64,000 nt of DNA. Origin: a virus. Shown here one piece after another: positions 20,727 through 36,714 of this stretch (positions are counted from its first letter, which is position 1; every line of letters begins with the position of its first letter). The stretch spans positions 1 through 64,000 of IMG/VR virus record IMGVR_UViG_3300006802_012847. One strand, given 5' to 3'. The notes under the pieces were generated by a model. It had not been told where the DNA came from, did no database searches, and saw only the letters and a program-made list of their open reading frames with translations. Position numbers and translations under genes: made by a program.

Positions 20727-21836
20727 ATGATTTTTAGTCAATTTACAACGGATGATATTGTATCAGGTAGAATAAATCAGGTGTCTTCTGGTTTATTTGG
20801 TACCACAGGTAGTTTATATTTAAGTCAATCTCAATTCACCACATCATCTGCATATAATACAGCTCCTACAGGCTCTTCAGCATTTGATGTAAAAAACGGA
20901 CAGTATTATCTAAATGTACAATATAATAGTGAAACATATTTTGCATTAGCATATGGTGATTATGCTAACAGTGGTAGTTCTGAATTTGATGACCCAGATA
21001 ATGCTACAACTGTTTTAACAAATGAAACTAAAGTAATTTATTCGGAATATAAAAATACACTTTTACAACCAAGTGATGATTTATTTTCGTTTGCTTCTGG
21101 AAGTGCTACAACTCCAGTAGATGGTCAACAAATATTCGTGATGAACTTTTCATCCGATAAAATTAAAGATCAATTAGATCCAGGCCAGATTCAAATAAAT
21201 TTAAACGGAACAAGTGGACAGTTTTCATTTATTGATGATTCTCAAGTAATAAATAAACAACAGAGTGTATATAATTTGATTTCTGGTTCTGTAGTTAACG
21301 GAGTTCCTACGCCATATTTGTCAAACGGTAGTCCAGTATATGCTGGGGTTGGACTATTTTATCCATCTCAGGGTGTAGTTATTTTTAATGCTGAAAAAAC
21401 AAATGATATTGTTGGATTTTACCGATCAAGTGATATAGACAGTAGATTATCAAATGCTAGTACTTATGATAACACTAATTCATATGATAAATACTGGAGA
21501 TTGTGGTTTAGATCTTTCTATAAAGCTATTAAATCGTCTACAAAAACTATGGCGGCAAGACGTAGTGAATTTGTACCAAGTACCAATTATTTCGTACGTG
21601 TAAAAAATAAAGAATTTAATTATACAAATAATCCAACATTTGTTTCTGATGGTACGGACGGTAAAACAAAAGGAACAATTATATATCAAGATTTAATTAA
21701 TAATCCTAGAACTTATATTACAAGTGTTGGACTTTATAATGCAAATAATGAGTTAGTCGCTATTGGTAAAATAAGTAGACCGATTCAAAAGAGTTTTGAT
21801 AGTGAATTACTGATTAAGGTTAGATTGGATTTTTAG
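20727..21836 (+). CDS. Virion structural protein (baseplate/collar-associated)
   Basis: YFVRVKNKEFNYTNNPTF...TYITSVGLYNANNELVAIGKISRPIQK C-terminus. Confidence 0.65.
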   Translation: MIFSQFTTDDIVSGRINQVSSGLFGTTGSLYLSQSQFTTSSAYNTAPTGSSAFDVKNGQYYLNVQYNSETYFALAYGDYANSGSSEFDDPDNATTVLTNETKVIYSEYKNTLLQPSDDLFSFASGSATTPVDGQQIFVMNFSSDKIKDQLDPGQIQINLNGTSGQFSFIDDSQVINKQQSVYNLISGSVVNGVPTPYLSNGSPVYAGVGLFYPSQGVVIFNAEKTNDIVGFYRSSDIDSRLSNASTYDNTNSYDKYWRLWFRSFYKAIKSSTKTMAARRSEFVPSTNYFVRVKNKEFNYTNNPTFVSDGTDGKTKGTIIYQDLINNPRTYITSVGLYNANNELVAIGKISRPIQKSFDSELLIKVRLDF

Positions 21837-21858
21837 TAAAAAAAATAAAATATTTGAG

Positions 21859-21892
21859 TAATATCGCTCAGTTTTTATATTGAGCGATATTA
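21859..21892. promoter_or_regulatory. Intergenic inverted repeat (hairpin/terminator or operator)
   Basis: Perfect 12-bp TAATATCGCTCA/TGAGCGATATTA with a 10-nt loop. Confidence 0.6.
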
Positions 21893-34064: not shown

Positions 34065-34122
34065 AAGAGATATTTGGTCAATATCGCTAAACAAAATAGG
34101 ATTCGTGATATATTTATAGTTA

Positions 34123-36714
34123 ATGTCGAATTTATTTAGCATATATAATGAGAACTTTGGAGGAAATGTAGTTACAAACGGAAAATTCATAGCCGTTTCA
34201 AACATAAATTCCAAAACATACTCATGTGACGAAAATTTTTCTAGGATCGGAGAAGTTAGAGTGTATAGAAAAAATGACTTTTCTATAAATTATTCTCTCG
34301 ATAAAGTATACAGACATCCGTTATATGGTACGCAAATTTATTATACAGAACAGTCTTCTAGTGCTGCCAGATCTTCATCTCTTTCGCCAGAACAAAGTGG
34401 ATCATCTTTAGATACAACATCGAGTTTTGATTGTTGTGGAGTATTTGAAATAGATGGCGATCCTACTATTTTCAAACAAACTCAGTATGGATCAGCTTTA
34501 TCTATTTGTGAAAGGTATTTAACAATTGCAGATACTGGTGTCAGCCAAAGTTTTAATAATGTTAATTCTTCATTTGCTTGTGTAGATATTTTTAATTTAT
34601 ATGATCAATCGAATACAGGTTCTTGTGTAACAGAAAATGACTCAACATTTACATTGCCTAATAGTCCATTTTACAGAATAAGCGGATCTATATCATCTAG
34701 TTTTGGTCATGCTGTTGCAGTTTCTAATAACTATTTAGCAATTTCAGCTCCAAATCAAAGTGTATATTCGTCTAATGATGATGGATTAGTATACATTTAT
34801 AAGTTAATTAGTGGTTCATACACATGTGGTTATGAACTGATGCAGACATTGATACCACCGCACACTAATAGTTATTTTGGGTCTGATATTTACTTGGATA
34901 AAATCAACGAAAATAAATTAGTTGTCGCAAATGGATTATCACAAGCAAATAAAGTTTATGTATATCATTTAATTAATGACTCATGGACATTAAAACAGAC
35001 TTTAACAAACAACACATCATCTAAATGGTTCAGACTTCAAAATGGAAATACTTACGAGGAAACACCATGGTTACCCGTGTCACAGAGTTATGGTAAATTT
35101 GGTTATTCAGTTGCTGTAGCTGGGAGACATTTAGTAATTGGCGCTCCTGAAGATTTGACTTATTATGAATATTCTTCTTCAAATGATGCATTACCATTAA
35201 GAAGACGAGGATCAATTTCCAGTTATCATTTACCAACTGGTTCTGCGGATTTTCAATTTGTATTTCGTGAAAAATTATATGGTGACATAAATACTTTTAA
35301 AGACAATATGTTTGGATATGATGTAGATGTAACATCAAAATATGTATTAGCAGGTTCGCCAAAAATTTATTCTCCATTTTCTAGTTTATATTTATCCGAA
35401 TCGATTGGTAGATATAATATAAATCTAGAACCAAATGACTTTGGAGCTAGTACCTTCAATGGACAAGCTTTATTATATAATATAATTACATCTTCATGTC
35501 AAGATTCATTTGATTTAAAACAATCTACAACAATTCCAATTTCTTATAGAAAAAGAACAGATGAATCTTATAGTGCATTTGGTTTGTCGGTAGGATTGTC
35601 TGATGAAAACTTAGTCATAGGATCTCCAATTCCTTTAAATAACGATTTTTATTTACAAACACCGTATGCTTTCGAACAATCTTCTAGTGGTATATTTACA
35701 TGTGGCACAGCTGATTCAGTACCGGCATCGTTTATTAGAATGGAAGATGTTATTTGTGTATGTGATGATCAACATGATATGAATAGTTATGTCAGTGGAT
35801 CAGTTGTATTTATAGAAGAAGGACCGATAGTTGAAGAATTACATGGAAAAGCATTTATATATGATTTTGCAGATTTACAAAAAGATGGATTAGTAGGAAA
35901 TATATTTTATTCCAACAATAGATTTGTAATAAATAATACTGGTAGTATATTAAAAGATTTATTAAAAAATCCAGATGAAAATTATTTAACAGATTATGTT
36001 TATGGTACATATGACAGTCAGATAACTCTTAATGAAAAACAATATATTTGTACAGTAGAGCCTGGTGAATTTAATGTATCTACGAATCCGACAGCTTTAA
36101 CAGCTTCATACACCGGATCTTATAATGTAATAAACAAAAATACGTTCACATTTGAAAATTTAGACATTATTCTGAGATTTATCAATTATAAATTAACTTC
36201 CACACATGTTGAGTCTTGGTGGGATGTATTAGTAGAGGGAGAAGTCCAACAAAGCATATTTGGATTTTTCTCATCTTCTGTAGACAACTATGCAGCTAAT
36301 AGATTGACAAATCCATTAATATGTGAATTAGCAAATAAAAATTTTGATGTGAATAAAGATGGAATTGTTAGTTACGACGATGCTTACATGATCTGGAACT
36401 ATTTTATAGAGAATTTAACTATAGAAAATTATTATCAATATATTTCGCCGACATCGAGACGTAAAAATTATAACGATATTATATCATTTTTAGATTTAAA
36501 AACTGCTAGAAATAGTCAAAATAAGATCAAGGGAGAATTCTTTAATTATAATTATAGCTCGTCGGTTGATCCAACAGGATCTTATTTAGCACCATATATA
36601 ACAGACGTTGGTTTGTATGCTGGAGCTGATTTAGTGGCTATAGCAAAAATAGCTTCACCTATAAAAAATAATGGACAAATACCTATTAATATTGTGGTGA
36701 AATGGGATACATAA
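34123..36714 (+). CDS. FG-GAP-repeat (beta-propeller) protein with dockerin-like motif, fused to structural-protein C-half
   Basis: FG.AVAVS...LAISAP, FGYSVAV.G..LVIGAP, FGYDVDV...LAGSP repeats; DVNKDGIVSYDD; PYITDVGLY....LVAIAKIASPIK end. Confidence 0.75.
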   Translation: MSNLFSIYNENFGGNVVTNGKFIAVSNINSKTYSCDENFSRIGEVRVYRKNDFSINYSLDKVYRHPLYGTQIYYTEQSSSAARSSSLSPEQSGSSLDTTSSFDCCGVFEIDGDPTIFKQTQYGSALSICERYLTIADTGVSQSFNNVNSSFACVDIFNLYDQSNTGSCVTENDSTFTLPNSPFYRISGSISSSFGHAVAVSNNYLAISAPNQSVYSSNDDGLVYIYKLISGSYTCGYELMQTLIPPHTNSYFGSDIYLDKINENKLVVANGLSQANKVYVYHLINDSWTLKQTLTNNTSSKWFRLQNGNTYEETPWLPVSQSYGKFGYSVAVAGRHLVIGAPEDLTYYEYSSSNDALPLRRRGSISSYHLPTGSADFQFVFREKLYGDINTFKDNMFGYDVDVTSKYVLAGSPKIYSPFSSLYLSESIGRYNINLEPNDFGASTFNGQALLYNIITSSCQDSFDLKQSTTIPISYRKRTDESYSAFGLSVGLSDENLVIGSPIPLNNDFYLQTPYAFEQSSSGIFTCGTADSVPASFIRMEDVICVCDDQHDMNSYVSGSVVFIEEGPIVEELHGKAFIYDFADLQKDGLVGNIFYSNNRFVINNTGSILKDLLKNPDENYLTDYVYGTYDSQITLNEKQYICTVEPGEFNVSTNPTALTASYTGSYNVINKNTFTFENLDIILRFINYKLTSTHVESWWDVLVEGEVQQSIFGFFSSSVDNYAANRLTNPLICELANKNFDVNKDGIVSYDDAYMIWNYFIENLTIENYYQYISPTSRRKNYNDIISFLDLKTARNSQNKIKGEFFNYNYSSSVDPTGSYLAPYITDVGLYAGADLVAIAKIASPIKNNGQIPINIVVKWDT

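What the first reader, a model, noticed from the sequence alone, without database searches (positions are those of the whole stretch)
20727..36714. A structural gene appears split in two, with the 10.4 kb glycan island between the halves
Seen: the 369-aa protein (20727) matches the front of the 553-aa ORF (MIFSQFTTDDIV vs MIKFFKNEDVIV; VMNFSSDKIKDQLDPGQIQINL..FIDDS vs VFNLTIPQAGDRIRTNTLKLN..IVDDG). It separately matches the back of the 863-aa ORF (VGLFYPSQGVVIFN vs VGNIFYSNNRFVIN; YFVRVKNKEFNYTNNPT vs YICTVEPGEFNVSTNPT; TYITSVGLY..LVAIGKISRPIQK vs PYITDVGLY..LVAIAKIASPIK). The N-half match is weak and the C-half match is clearer. Inference: a paralogue was broken at an insertion-tolerant loop after the DD motif. 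The new C-end carries mucin + Cys-rich domains and the new N-end carries an FG-GAP propeller, so the fold would be rebuilt in trans as a display platform.
Basis: partly seen in the sequence, partly recalled or inferred. Interest (0 to 1): 0.8.

Follow-up and report, generated by a model that had tools for sequence, protein, structure and literature searches.

The report
Old split of a phage baseplate gene
A tail-baseplate gene of a large aquatic phage is encoded in two pieces that probably reassemble in the virion, but the split long predates the sugar-enzyme island, which later settled in the gap between the pieces.

Summary
The back of the 369-aa protein (aa 202-369) is homologous to the back of the 863-aa ORF (aa ~585-863): hhalign probability 98%, E 3e-14. 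The front match to the 553-aa ORF is remote: pairwise BLASTP finds nothing and broad profiles give E 5e-4, but bridging sequences and domain architectures support it.

Unsplit versions exist. At least 12 distant relatives carry N-domain, FG-GAP propeller and C-half in one chain. Microcystis phage Mel-JY01 has an unsplit, propeller-less version at the same genomic position.

The island did not break the gene. All 43 distinct related loci have two separate genes. In the 34 without an island, the two genes abut or overlap (-4 to +67 nt; one relative has 519 nt with a small ORF). The fission is old, and the junction later became a hotspot. It gained or lost glycosyltransferase cassettes at least 4 times, always together with a Pro/Thr/Ser-rich extension on the N-half gene (8 of 8 against 0 of 34).

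A co-fold of the two halves passes its controls (0.63 against 0.00). Alone, the C-half models as disordered.

The module family has no Pfam, PHROG or PDB relative.

The parts
20727..21836 (+). 369-aa intact two-half module (P0001). It is the reference paralogue: N-half aa ~1-200, C-half aa ~202-369.
   Evidence: 522 homologues, none with a Pfam or PHROG match. Mel-JY01 has five tandem paralogues. The AF2 model has mean pLDDT 69.5 and no clear PDB relative.
21938..22615 (+). N-half gene proper: aa 1-226 of the 553-aa ORF. This is the N-terminal anchor-type domain.
   Evidence: In 34 island-free relatives it is a free-standing protein, mostly 226-248 aa with a few longer (208-376 aa). Of 184 representative hits (150 listed), the listed ones carry the domain at or near the N-terminus, in proteins of 65-1370 aa with variable C-terminal parts. 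There is remote co-linear similarity to 369-aa residues ~75-200.
22643..23074 (+). Pro/Ser/Thr/Val-rich mucin-like repeat region of the 553-aa ORF (aa 236-379).
   Evidence: S+T+P reaches 69% in the richest 80-aa window. Such repeats occur only in relatives that also have a glycosyltransferase island: 8 of 8 against 0 of 34.
23075..23599 (+). Cys-rich globular C-terminal domain of the 553-aa ORF (aa 380-553).
   Evidence: The extension holds 12 Cys. A related domain follows the repeats in L003, L004, L006 and L060. No Pfam match.
23674..34064 (+). Glycan island of six genes:
- 899-aa double GlcNAc-transferase (PF11397)
- 331-aa protein, no family match
- 541-aa carbamoyltransferase
- 1043-aa protein with FkbM-type methyltransferase and HtrL domains
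- 327-aa and 310-aa paralogues, no family match
   Evidence: Pfam and PHROG matches. Island content differs between relatives, but each of the three islands scanned against Pfam (L003, L006, L012) includes a glycosyltransferase. The 369-protein tree needs at least 4 gains or losses.
34110..34118 (+). ATATTTATA motif 5 nt upstream of the 863-aa ORF's ATG. It may be a late-promoter-like element that gives the C-half gene its own expression signal.
   Evidence: The same motif lies in the spacers of 50 nt or more before homologues in L010, L016, L030, L040 and L052. In the window it also lies upstream of the sheath gene and two other ORFs, but it is not enriched overall.
34123..35637 (+). FG-GAP beta-propeller of the 863-aa ORF (aa 1-505).
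   Evidence: PF14312 at E 1e-11. In the AF2 model most 10-residue blocks of the blades score pLDDT 75-93, with disordered loops at 68-113, 163-174, 301-315 and 432-439. In unsplit relatives the propeller sits between the N-domain and the C-half.
35875..36714 (+). C-half of the module (aa ~585-863). It holds a helical insertion of about 130 aa (aa ~665-795) that includes a dockerin/EF-hand-like loop, FDVNKDGIVSYDD (aa 741-753).
   Evidence: hhalign against 369-aa residues 202-369: probability 98.3%, E 2.7e-14. pLDDT is 25-35 when folded without the N-half. The partner pLDDT is 70 or more with an extensive interface to the N-half in the co-fold.

Best explanation
The window is the baseplate-to-fibre part of a large (about 280 kb) aquatic myovirus. 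After the gp25-like and gp6-like wedge genes comes a family of peripheral virion proteins built on an uncharacterised module of about 360 aa with an N-half and a C-half. The 369-aa protein is the plain form.

A second copy of this module once carried an FG-GAP propeller inserted in the loop between its halves, as a single gene. In the ancestor of this phage clade that gene underwent fission just before the propeller. This gave a gene of about 230 aa for the N-half, and a gene of about 860 aa for the propeller plus the C-half.

The two products most likely reassemble in the virion by beta-strand complementation. In the co-fold, 553-aa strands 153-156 and 191-193 pair with 863-aa strands 600-603 and 591-594. 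This would rebuild the module as a heterodimeric anchor that displays the propeller.

Much later, in several lineages independently, the short junction between the two genes received glycosyltransferase cassettes. In the same step the N-half gene gained a Pro/Thr/Ser-rich stalk and a Cys-rich head. The island's polypeptide-GlcNAc-transferase-like enzymes plausibly O-glycosylate that stalk.

What is shown and what is inferred:
- Shown: the homologies, the architectures, the two-gene state in all relatives, and the co-occurrence of island and stalk.
- Inferred: the direction of the event (fission rather than fusion), assembly in trans, the location in the virion, and glycosylation.
For: Genomic context: tape measure, gp25-like and gp6-like wedge genes lie upstream; primase, SbcCD and sheath lie downstream. 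The record is 100 kb and about 36% complete.

C-half homology: probability 98.3%, E 2.7e-14.

N-half homology:
- hhalign E 5.4e-4.
- Co-linear HMM hits at E 3e-6 to 1e-4, against 0.04 for reversed controls; reciprocal hits in the same place.
- P0271 (306 aa) joins an N-domain of the 553 type to a C-half of the 369/863 type.

Unsplit forms:
- 13 representatives of 1021-1274 aa have N-domain + FG-GAP + C-half in one chain.
- Mel-JY01's 591-aa gene and the 556-aa gene in L076 are unsplit and lie at the same syntenic position, last in the array before the primase.

C-domain tree: the split forms make one clade (SH-aLRT 99), and 12 fused forms lie outside it, towards the propeller-less outgroup.

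Two-gene state: all 43 distinct related loci have two ORFs, each with its own stop and ATG. Frames and spacers vary, and there is no shared slippery site.

Island: at least 4 gains or losses on the tree, always together with the PT/S-rich extension in 4 of 4 independent contrasts; 8 of 8 against 0 of 34 overall.

Co-fold of 553-aa 1-229 with 863-aa 572-863:
- ipSAE 0.63 (three runs: 0.63, 0.63, 0.67); best of 3 controls 0.00.
- Partner pLDDT at least 70; the runs share at least 79% of contacts.
- 58 of 80 solved complexes and 2 of 110 mismatched pairs reach this mark. The counts hold only roughly here, because my own alignments were used.
- No similar solved complex is known.

The 863-aa C-half alone models at pLDDT 25-35.
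Against: - The N-half homology is weak. It fails by BLASTP and with narrow profiles, and hhalign gives only 30% probability.
- The root of the C-domain tree is poorly supported (SH-aLRT 46). One fused form (P0144) nests inside the split clade, so fission then re-fusion, or an assembly or gene-calling artefact, has to be invoked.
- The fused forms are metagenomic gene calls.
- The monomer model (AF2) and the co-fold (ESMFold2) come from different programs, so 'disordered alone, ordered together' is not a clean comparison.
- I could not compare the co-fold's contacts with the contacts inside the 369-aa model.
- No solved structure places this module in a baseplate.
- The contrast test linking island and extension has only 4 pairs (p 0.125).
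Confidence: 0.62

Rival explanations
1. There was no fission. The two genes were always separate neighbours that bind each other, and the single-chain forms in distant phages are secondary fusions of adjacent genes (Rosetta-stone fusions). The resemblance of the 553-aa N-domain to the front of the 369-aa protein reflects only a shared anchor-type beta fold, or chance.
For: The N-half similarity is marginal. P0144 looks like a simple read-through fusion of adjacent genes, with a 10-aa junction, and it nests inside the split clade. The tree root is weak. L075 also has a two-gene arrangement.
Against: Unsplit forms occur in both syntenic outgroups, Mel-JY01 and L076. Twelve fused representatives lie outside the split clade. 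P0271 and the four complete Mel-JY01 paralogues (the fifth, the 591-aa gene, is an unsplit variant with an inserted middle) show N-half and C-half as one compact unit. The C-half alone is not predicted to fold.
Confidence: 0.2
2. Insertion of the 10.4-kb glycan island broke a contiguous paralogue of the 369-aa gene in this phage or its close kin. The mucin-like tail and the FG-GAP propeller were then added to the new ends.
For: In the window the island does lie exactly between the two halves. The mucin-like tail is indeed an addition linked to the island.
Against: All 34 island-free distinct relatives, down to 39% identity, already have two genes with their own stops and starts. Islands differ in content and were gained or lost at least 4 times within the split clade. 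The propeller is internal in unsplit relatives.
Confidence: 0.03
3. The three proteins are unrelated fibre or baseplate components that share only a short C-terminal assembly motif (the last ~40 aa) and compositional bias (N/S/T/Y-rich beta proteins). Neither halves nor complementation are involved.
For: BLASTP sees only the last 39 aa. Narrow profiles see only about 60 columns. No known fold anchors the comparison.
Against: Broad profiles extend the C-half match to 137 co-linear columns at E 2.7e-14. Reversed-sequence controls give nothing comparable. The fused architectures and the co-fold passing its controls would not be expected.
Confidence: 0.1

Closest known systems
Tandem hypothetical proteins of Microcystis phage Mel-JY01 (PP395634.1; WWT39513-WWT39517)
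   Same: The gene order matches: large protein, ~211-aa protein, then an array of module proteins, then primase. Four members carry the whole 369-type module at 27-32% identity. The last, 591 aa, has an N-domain of the 553 type and a C-half of the 863 type.
   Different: In Mel-JY01 the last member is one gene and has no detectable FG-GAP propeller. There is no glycan island and no mucin-like tail. All are annotated only as hypothetical proteins.
Modular phage receptor-binding and peripheral baseplate proteins with a conserved anchor and exchangeable distal domains (for example T4 gp9/gp10/gp12; reviewed in PMC3004832)
   Same: The genes lie downstream of gp25-like and gp6-like wedge genes. 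A conserved anchor-like domain is joined to highly variable adhesin-type domains: FG-GAP, MBG/YDG, Ig and LamG.
Virion glycosylation in mycobacteriophages (Freeman et al. 2023, PMC10527164, as cited in PMC12619734)
   Same: Phage-encoded glycosyltransferases lie next to structural genes. In the mycobacteriophages, glycans were observed at the C-termini of the capsid and tail-tube subunits (as quoted from PMC12619734).
   Different: Here the presumed target is a long PT/S repeat on a baseplate or fibre protein, and the lead enzyme belongs to PF11397 (GlcNAc). Nothing has been shown experimentally.
Protein-fragment complementation after gene fission, and Rosetta-stone gene pairs (general principle)
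   Same: The two genes are adjacent, often translationally coupled through ATGA overlaps, and correspond to one chain elsewhere. They are predicted to bind through an extensive beta-strand interface.
   Different: I know of no described case in which a phage baseplate module is split at an insertion loop and the junction then becomes a cargo hotspot. My literature search for one was shallow.

Membership tests
369-aa module family (uncharacterised; defined here by alignment A1 and the Mel-JY01 paralogues) | C-half with three conserved blocks: VG.F(Y)P..G.V; Y..V...EFN.(S/T)NPT; YIT.VGLY...L.A.(A/G)K...P | tested here: met
   863-aa residues 585-863 against 369-aa residues 202-369: probability 98.3%, E 2.7e-14, all blocks in register.
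369-aa module family (uncharacterised; defined here by alignment A1 and the Mel-JY01 paralogues) | N-half (aa ~1-200) ending in the ...I.DD block, on the same polypeptide as the C-half | tested here: not met
   The 863-aa ORF has no N-half. The 553-aa ORF has an N-half-like domain but no C-half. Neither ORF alone is a complete member; together they cover the module.
369-aa module family (uncharacterised; defined here by alignment A1 and the Mel-JY01 paralogues) | Homology of the 553-aa N-domain to the family's N-half | tested here: inconclusive
   BLASTP E 0.94. Narrow hhalign probability 1%. Broad hhalign E 5.4e-4, probability 30%. HMM hits at 3e-6 to 1e-4 against 0.04 for the reversed control. 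The reciprocal search gives 1e-3 to 1e-2 against 0.66.
FG-GAP / integrin-alpha-type beta-propeller (PF14312) | Repeated FG-GAP blades forming a propeller | tested here: met
   PF14312 at E 1.1e-11, above the gathering score. AF2 gives an all-beta repeat over aa 1-505 at high pLDDT.
T4-type baseplate proteins (gp6/gp7/gp8/gp9/gp10/gp11/gp12) | Sequence or fold similarity to a solved baseplate component | tested here: inconclusive
Split gene produced by insertion of a mobile island | Relatives without the island have one contiguous gene | tested here: not met
   All 34 island-free distinct loci have two ORFs.
Gene fission pair (Rosetta-stone) | Both parts are found in the same order on one polypeptide in other genomes | tested here: met
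   13 representatives of 1021-1274 aa, plus Mel-JY01 591 aa, L076 556 aa and P0271 306 aa.
Gene fission pair (Rosetta-stone) | The two products bind each other | not testable with these tools
   There is only a prediction: co-fold ipSAE 0.63 against a best control of 0.00. Co-purification or a virion structure is needed.

The most novel reading that the evidence does not exclude
An undescribed two-half beta module serves as a general display scaffold in the baseplates of large aquatic myoviruses. Its inter-half loop accepts whole domains such as the propeller. In one clade the module has been cut there into two genes that rebuild the fold in trans. That leaves a free C-terminus and an intergenic gap, which have repeatedly captured a phage-encoded mucin-type O-glycosylation cassette together with its own PT/S-rich substrate stalk. 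The result would be a self-glycosylating, modular host-recognition appendage.
Probability: 0.3. Interest if true: 0.7.

Novelty: new variant of a known kind. Interest (0 to 1): 0.5.

Why it matters
Host-recognition parts of uncultured jumbo phages are mostly unannotated. This work defines a widespread module family: 522 homologues of the 369-aa protein and 184 representative clusters for the N-domain. None has a Pfam, PHROG or PDB relative.

It also shows how the module diversifies: by tandem duplication, by domain insertion in one loop, by fission at that loop, and then by cargo capture at the new junction. This gives a concrete rule for reading such loci. The short ~230-aa gene and the C-terminus of the large next gene belong together.

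It marks the junction as the place to look for accessory cassettes. It also corrects a tempting but wrong causal reading, that the island broke the gene.

If trans-assembly and glycosylation are confirmed, this would be a natural example of a split scaffold displaying exchangeable, glycan-decorated binding domains.

Tried and rejected
- Pairwise BLASTP of the 369-aa protein against the 553-aa protein: nothing significant.
- Narrow family profiles (20-22 close sequences) missed the N-half and saw only the last ~60 columns of the C-half. Broader profiles were needed.
- Pfam and PHROG give no family for the 369-aa protein, the 553-aa protein or the 863-aa C-terminus.
- Profile searches against PDB sequences found nothing for A1 and only chance-level rows for A2.
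- ESM Atlas returned only unnamed viral clusters.
- The search for related loci with the fused forms P0143 and P0144 returned only already-known split loci, plus one contig (L083) that ends 342 aa into the gene, so its state is unknown.
- Programmed frameshift or read-through joining the two ORFs: rejected. Junctions differ in frame, stop codon and spacer, with no conserved slippery site. In the window, 10.5 kb separates the two ORFs.
- Literature: no paper mentions Mel-JY01. A search on gene fission in baseplate or tail-fibre genes gave no relevant case.
- The 'moraphage' paper (PMC12619734) mentions core glycosyltransferases. I could not establish that it describes this lineage.
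Full report
**What is in the window.**
- All genes from about 500 to 57,900 lie on the + strand. Their PHROG and Pfam matches mark a contractile-tail phage.
- Tail and baseplate genes are the tape measure (7393-10287), a gp25-like wedge protein (10775-11176) and a gp6-like wedge protein (11176-13185). They are followed by unannotated ORFs of 617, 158, 1501 and 214 aa.
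- Next come the three ORFs of the finding: 369 aa (20727-21836), 553 aa (21938-23599) and 863 aa (34123-36714).
- RuvC, primase, SbcCD and a 1325-aa sheath follow.
- Between the 553-aa and 863-aa ORFs lie six genes for glycan synthesis and tailoring: a double PF11397 GlcNAc-transferase, a carbamoyltransferase, an FkbM-methyltransferase/HtrL protein and three ORFs without a family.
- The record is a 100-kb virus contig judged about 36% complete, so the genome is roughly 280 kb. Related contigs reach 304 kb.

**Checking the observation.**
- BLASTP supports only the extreme C-terminus: 369-aa 330-368 against 863-aa 825-862, 49% identity, E 2e-5. It finds nothing between the 369-aa and 553-aa proteins.
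- Profiles built from 20-22 close relatives did little better.
- Broader profiles changed this. They added the Mel-JY01 paralogues and the representative-library hits.
- With them, the 863-aa C-terminal region (aa ~585-863) aligns co-linearly with 369-aa 202-369 at probability 98.3%, E 2.7e-14.
The 863-aa protein has a helical insertion of about 130 aa (aa ~665-795) where the 369-aa protein has a short loop.
- For the front, the broad 553-N profile aligns residues 113-190 with 369-aa 101-173, the '...DD' block, at E 5.4e-4 but only 30% probability.
- The 369-family HMM hits many 553-N family members at matching positions (E 3e-6 to 1e-4). Reversed sequences give at best 0.04. The reciprocal search is weak but lands in the same place.

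**Is it one gene elsewhere?**
- Yes, but only at a distance.
- A phmmer scan of 1.8 billion representatives with 553-aa 1-229 found 184 proteins. Among the 150 listed, the domain lies at or near the N-terminus.
- These proteins range from 65 to 1370 aa. Their C-terminal parts vary: MBG/YDG, Ig, LamG-like or FG-GAP.
- Thirteen representatives of 1021-1274 aa combine the N-domain, FG-GAP repeats and the complete 863-type C-domain in one chain.
- P0271 (306 aa) joins the N-domain directly to the C-half, with no propeller.
- In Microcystis phage Mel-JY01, the nearest cultured relative, the syntenic array is five tandem genes. Four contain the whole 369-type module.
- The last, 591 aa and just before the primase, has a 553-type N-domain and an 863-type C-half in one chain.
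- The IMG/VR group represented by L076 has the same arrangement in a 556-aa gene. L075 has a different two-gene arrangement, 351 aa followed by 205 aa.

**Did the island split it?**
- No. A scan of IMG/VR returned 78 loci, 43 of them with distinct 369-aa homologues.
- Every one has the N-half and the propeller/C-half as two ORFs.
- In the 34 without an island, the N-half protein is usually 226-248 aa. The genes overlap by ATGA or are separated by 1-67 nt (519 nt with a small extra ORF in L067).
- Stops, frames and spacers vary, so there is no frameshift signal.
- This holds down to the L066-L068 group, at about 40% identity.
- On a tree of the C-domain, the split forms make one strongly supported clade (SH-aLRT 99). 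Twelve fused forms fall outside it, towards the propeller-less outgroup.
- One fused form, P0144, nests inside the split clade. Its junction is only 10 aa, so it looks like a secondary read-through fusion or an artefact.
- The root is weak (SH-aLRT 46), so 'fission once, early' is the most parsimonious reading but not a demonstrated one.

**What the island is doing there.**
- The variable unit is not just the six genes. It runs from about codon 227 of the 553-aa ORF to the start of the 863-aa ORF (window ~22616-34122).
- Eight distinct relatives, the window included, carry a long Pro/Thr/Ser-rich repeat (up to 100% S+T+P over 80 aa) plus a Cys-rich head on the N-half gene.
- All eight have an island between the two genes. 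L003, L006 and L012 were scanned against Pfam, and each island holds at least one glycosyltransferase.
- The sets differ: PF11397, GT1, GT25 or a DXD 'Gly_transf_sug' enzyme, with sugar methyltransferases in some.
- In four others (L004, L011, L023, L060), tblastn finds a homologue of the window's 899-aa GlcNAc-transferase.
- None of the 34 island-free loci has such a repeat.
- L010 and its kin carry a different, non-mucin extension and no island.
- On the 369-protein tree the island needs at least 4 gains or losses. In all 4 independent contrasts the repeat goes with it; the sign test cannot reach significance with 4 pairs.
- The simplest reading is a cassette made of substrate stalk plus its glycosylation enzymes, which settles in the junction left by the fission.
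I tested only the co-occurrence.

**Do the halves work together?**
- AF2 on the 863-aa protein alone gives a confident propeller (aa 1-505) and a moderately confident helical insert. The module-like segments 586-674 and 765-863 score pLDDT 25-35.
- The equivalent parts of the intact 369-aa protein model at roughly 57-85.
- I co-folded 553-aa 1-229 with 863-aa 572-863, using the family alignments. It scored ipSAE 0.63, 0.63 and 0.67, against 0.00 for all three controls.
- The partner pLDDT was at least 70, and the runs agreed in at least 79% of their contacts.
- In the tool's calibration, 58 of 80 solved complexes and 2 of 110 mismatched pairs reach that mark. Those counts hold only roughly here, because my own alignments were used.
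- The lowest-error contacts are strand pairs. 553-aa 153-156 (ISVF) pairs with 863-aa 600-603, and 553-aa 191-193 pairs with 863-aa 591-594.
- The 553-aa N-terminus (1-3, 9-26) is in the interface. So is residue 832 of the C-terminal YITDVGLY block.
- No similar solved complex exists, so the pass is unlikely to come from memory of a known structure.
- This supports the trans-complementation idea but does not show it.

**What it probably is.**
- The evidence for a peripheral baseplate or fibre anchor that displays binding domains is threefold. The genes sit after the wedge genes. The paralogues are in tandem. One end is conserved while adhesin-type domains (propeller, Ig, MBG/YDG, lectin-like) vary.
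- The module's fold has no recognisable solved relative, so this placement is inference from context.

**Verdict.**
- The propeller was an internal insert before the split, not a later addition.
- It is a new variant of known themes (modular receptor-binding proteins, gene fission, accessory cassettes at hotspots) in an uncharacterised protein family. Interest is moderate.

Noticed in passing
window 34110-34118; also 2059, 42025, 54793 (+ strand): ATATTTATA lies 5-50 nt upstream of the ATG of the 863-aa ORF, the sheath gene and two other ORFs. It also lies in the spacers of 50 nt or more before 863-aa homologues in L010, L016, L030, L040 and L052. It may be a late-promoter motif. It is not enriched overall: 10 found against 5.2 expected.
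   Followed up: partly
window 36343-36381 (863-aa residues 741-753): FDVNKDGIVSYDD is a dockerin/EF-hand-like calcium loop inside the helical insertion of the C-half. D742, D746 and D753 are invariant across 20 homologues. There was no Pfam dockerin hit.
   Followed up: no
window 26373-27368, 32130-33113, 33132-34064: Three island ORFs of 331, 327 and 310 aa are paralogues. The 327-aa and 310-aa proteins are 59% identical, and all three share a C-terminal part of about 130 aa. None has a Pfam or PHROG match.
   Followed up: no
L010 11139-12266; proteins P0127, P0128: Some close relatives replace the mucin-like stalk with one or two copies of a different domain of about 130 aa (PDPYY.DY...GVVT...VPD.FE.IY.G). 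They have no glycan island.
   Followed up: no
window 51742-54762: The 1006-aa portal ORF carries an HNH endonuclease domain at aa ~198-298, ahead of the portal domain at aa 419-840. This suggests an inserted homing element or an intein-like arrangement.
   Followed up: no
window 42085-46062: The sheath ORF is 1325 aa, and the sheath match covers only the last ~310 aa. This implies a very large N-terminal or inserted region. GC rises to 0.37-0.38 here and to 0.43 inside the tape-measure gene at 8-10 kb.
   Followed up: no
L075 1992-3672: A distant relative has another two-gene arrangement of the same module, without a propeller: a 351-aa N-domain protein followed by a 205-aa C-half protein. 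Fission of this module may therefore have happened more than once.
   Followed up: partly
window 20074-20718: The 214-aa ORF just upstream of the 369-aa gene is by far the most conserved protein of the module: 78-96% identity where its neighbours show 45-78%, and 62-70% in the 40% clade. It has no family match.
   Followed up: no
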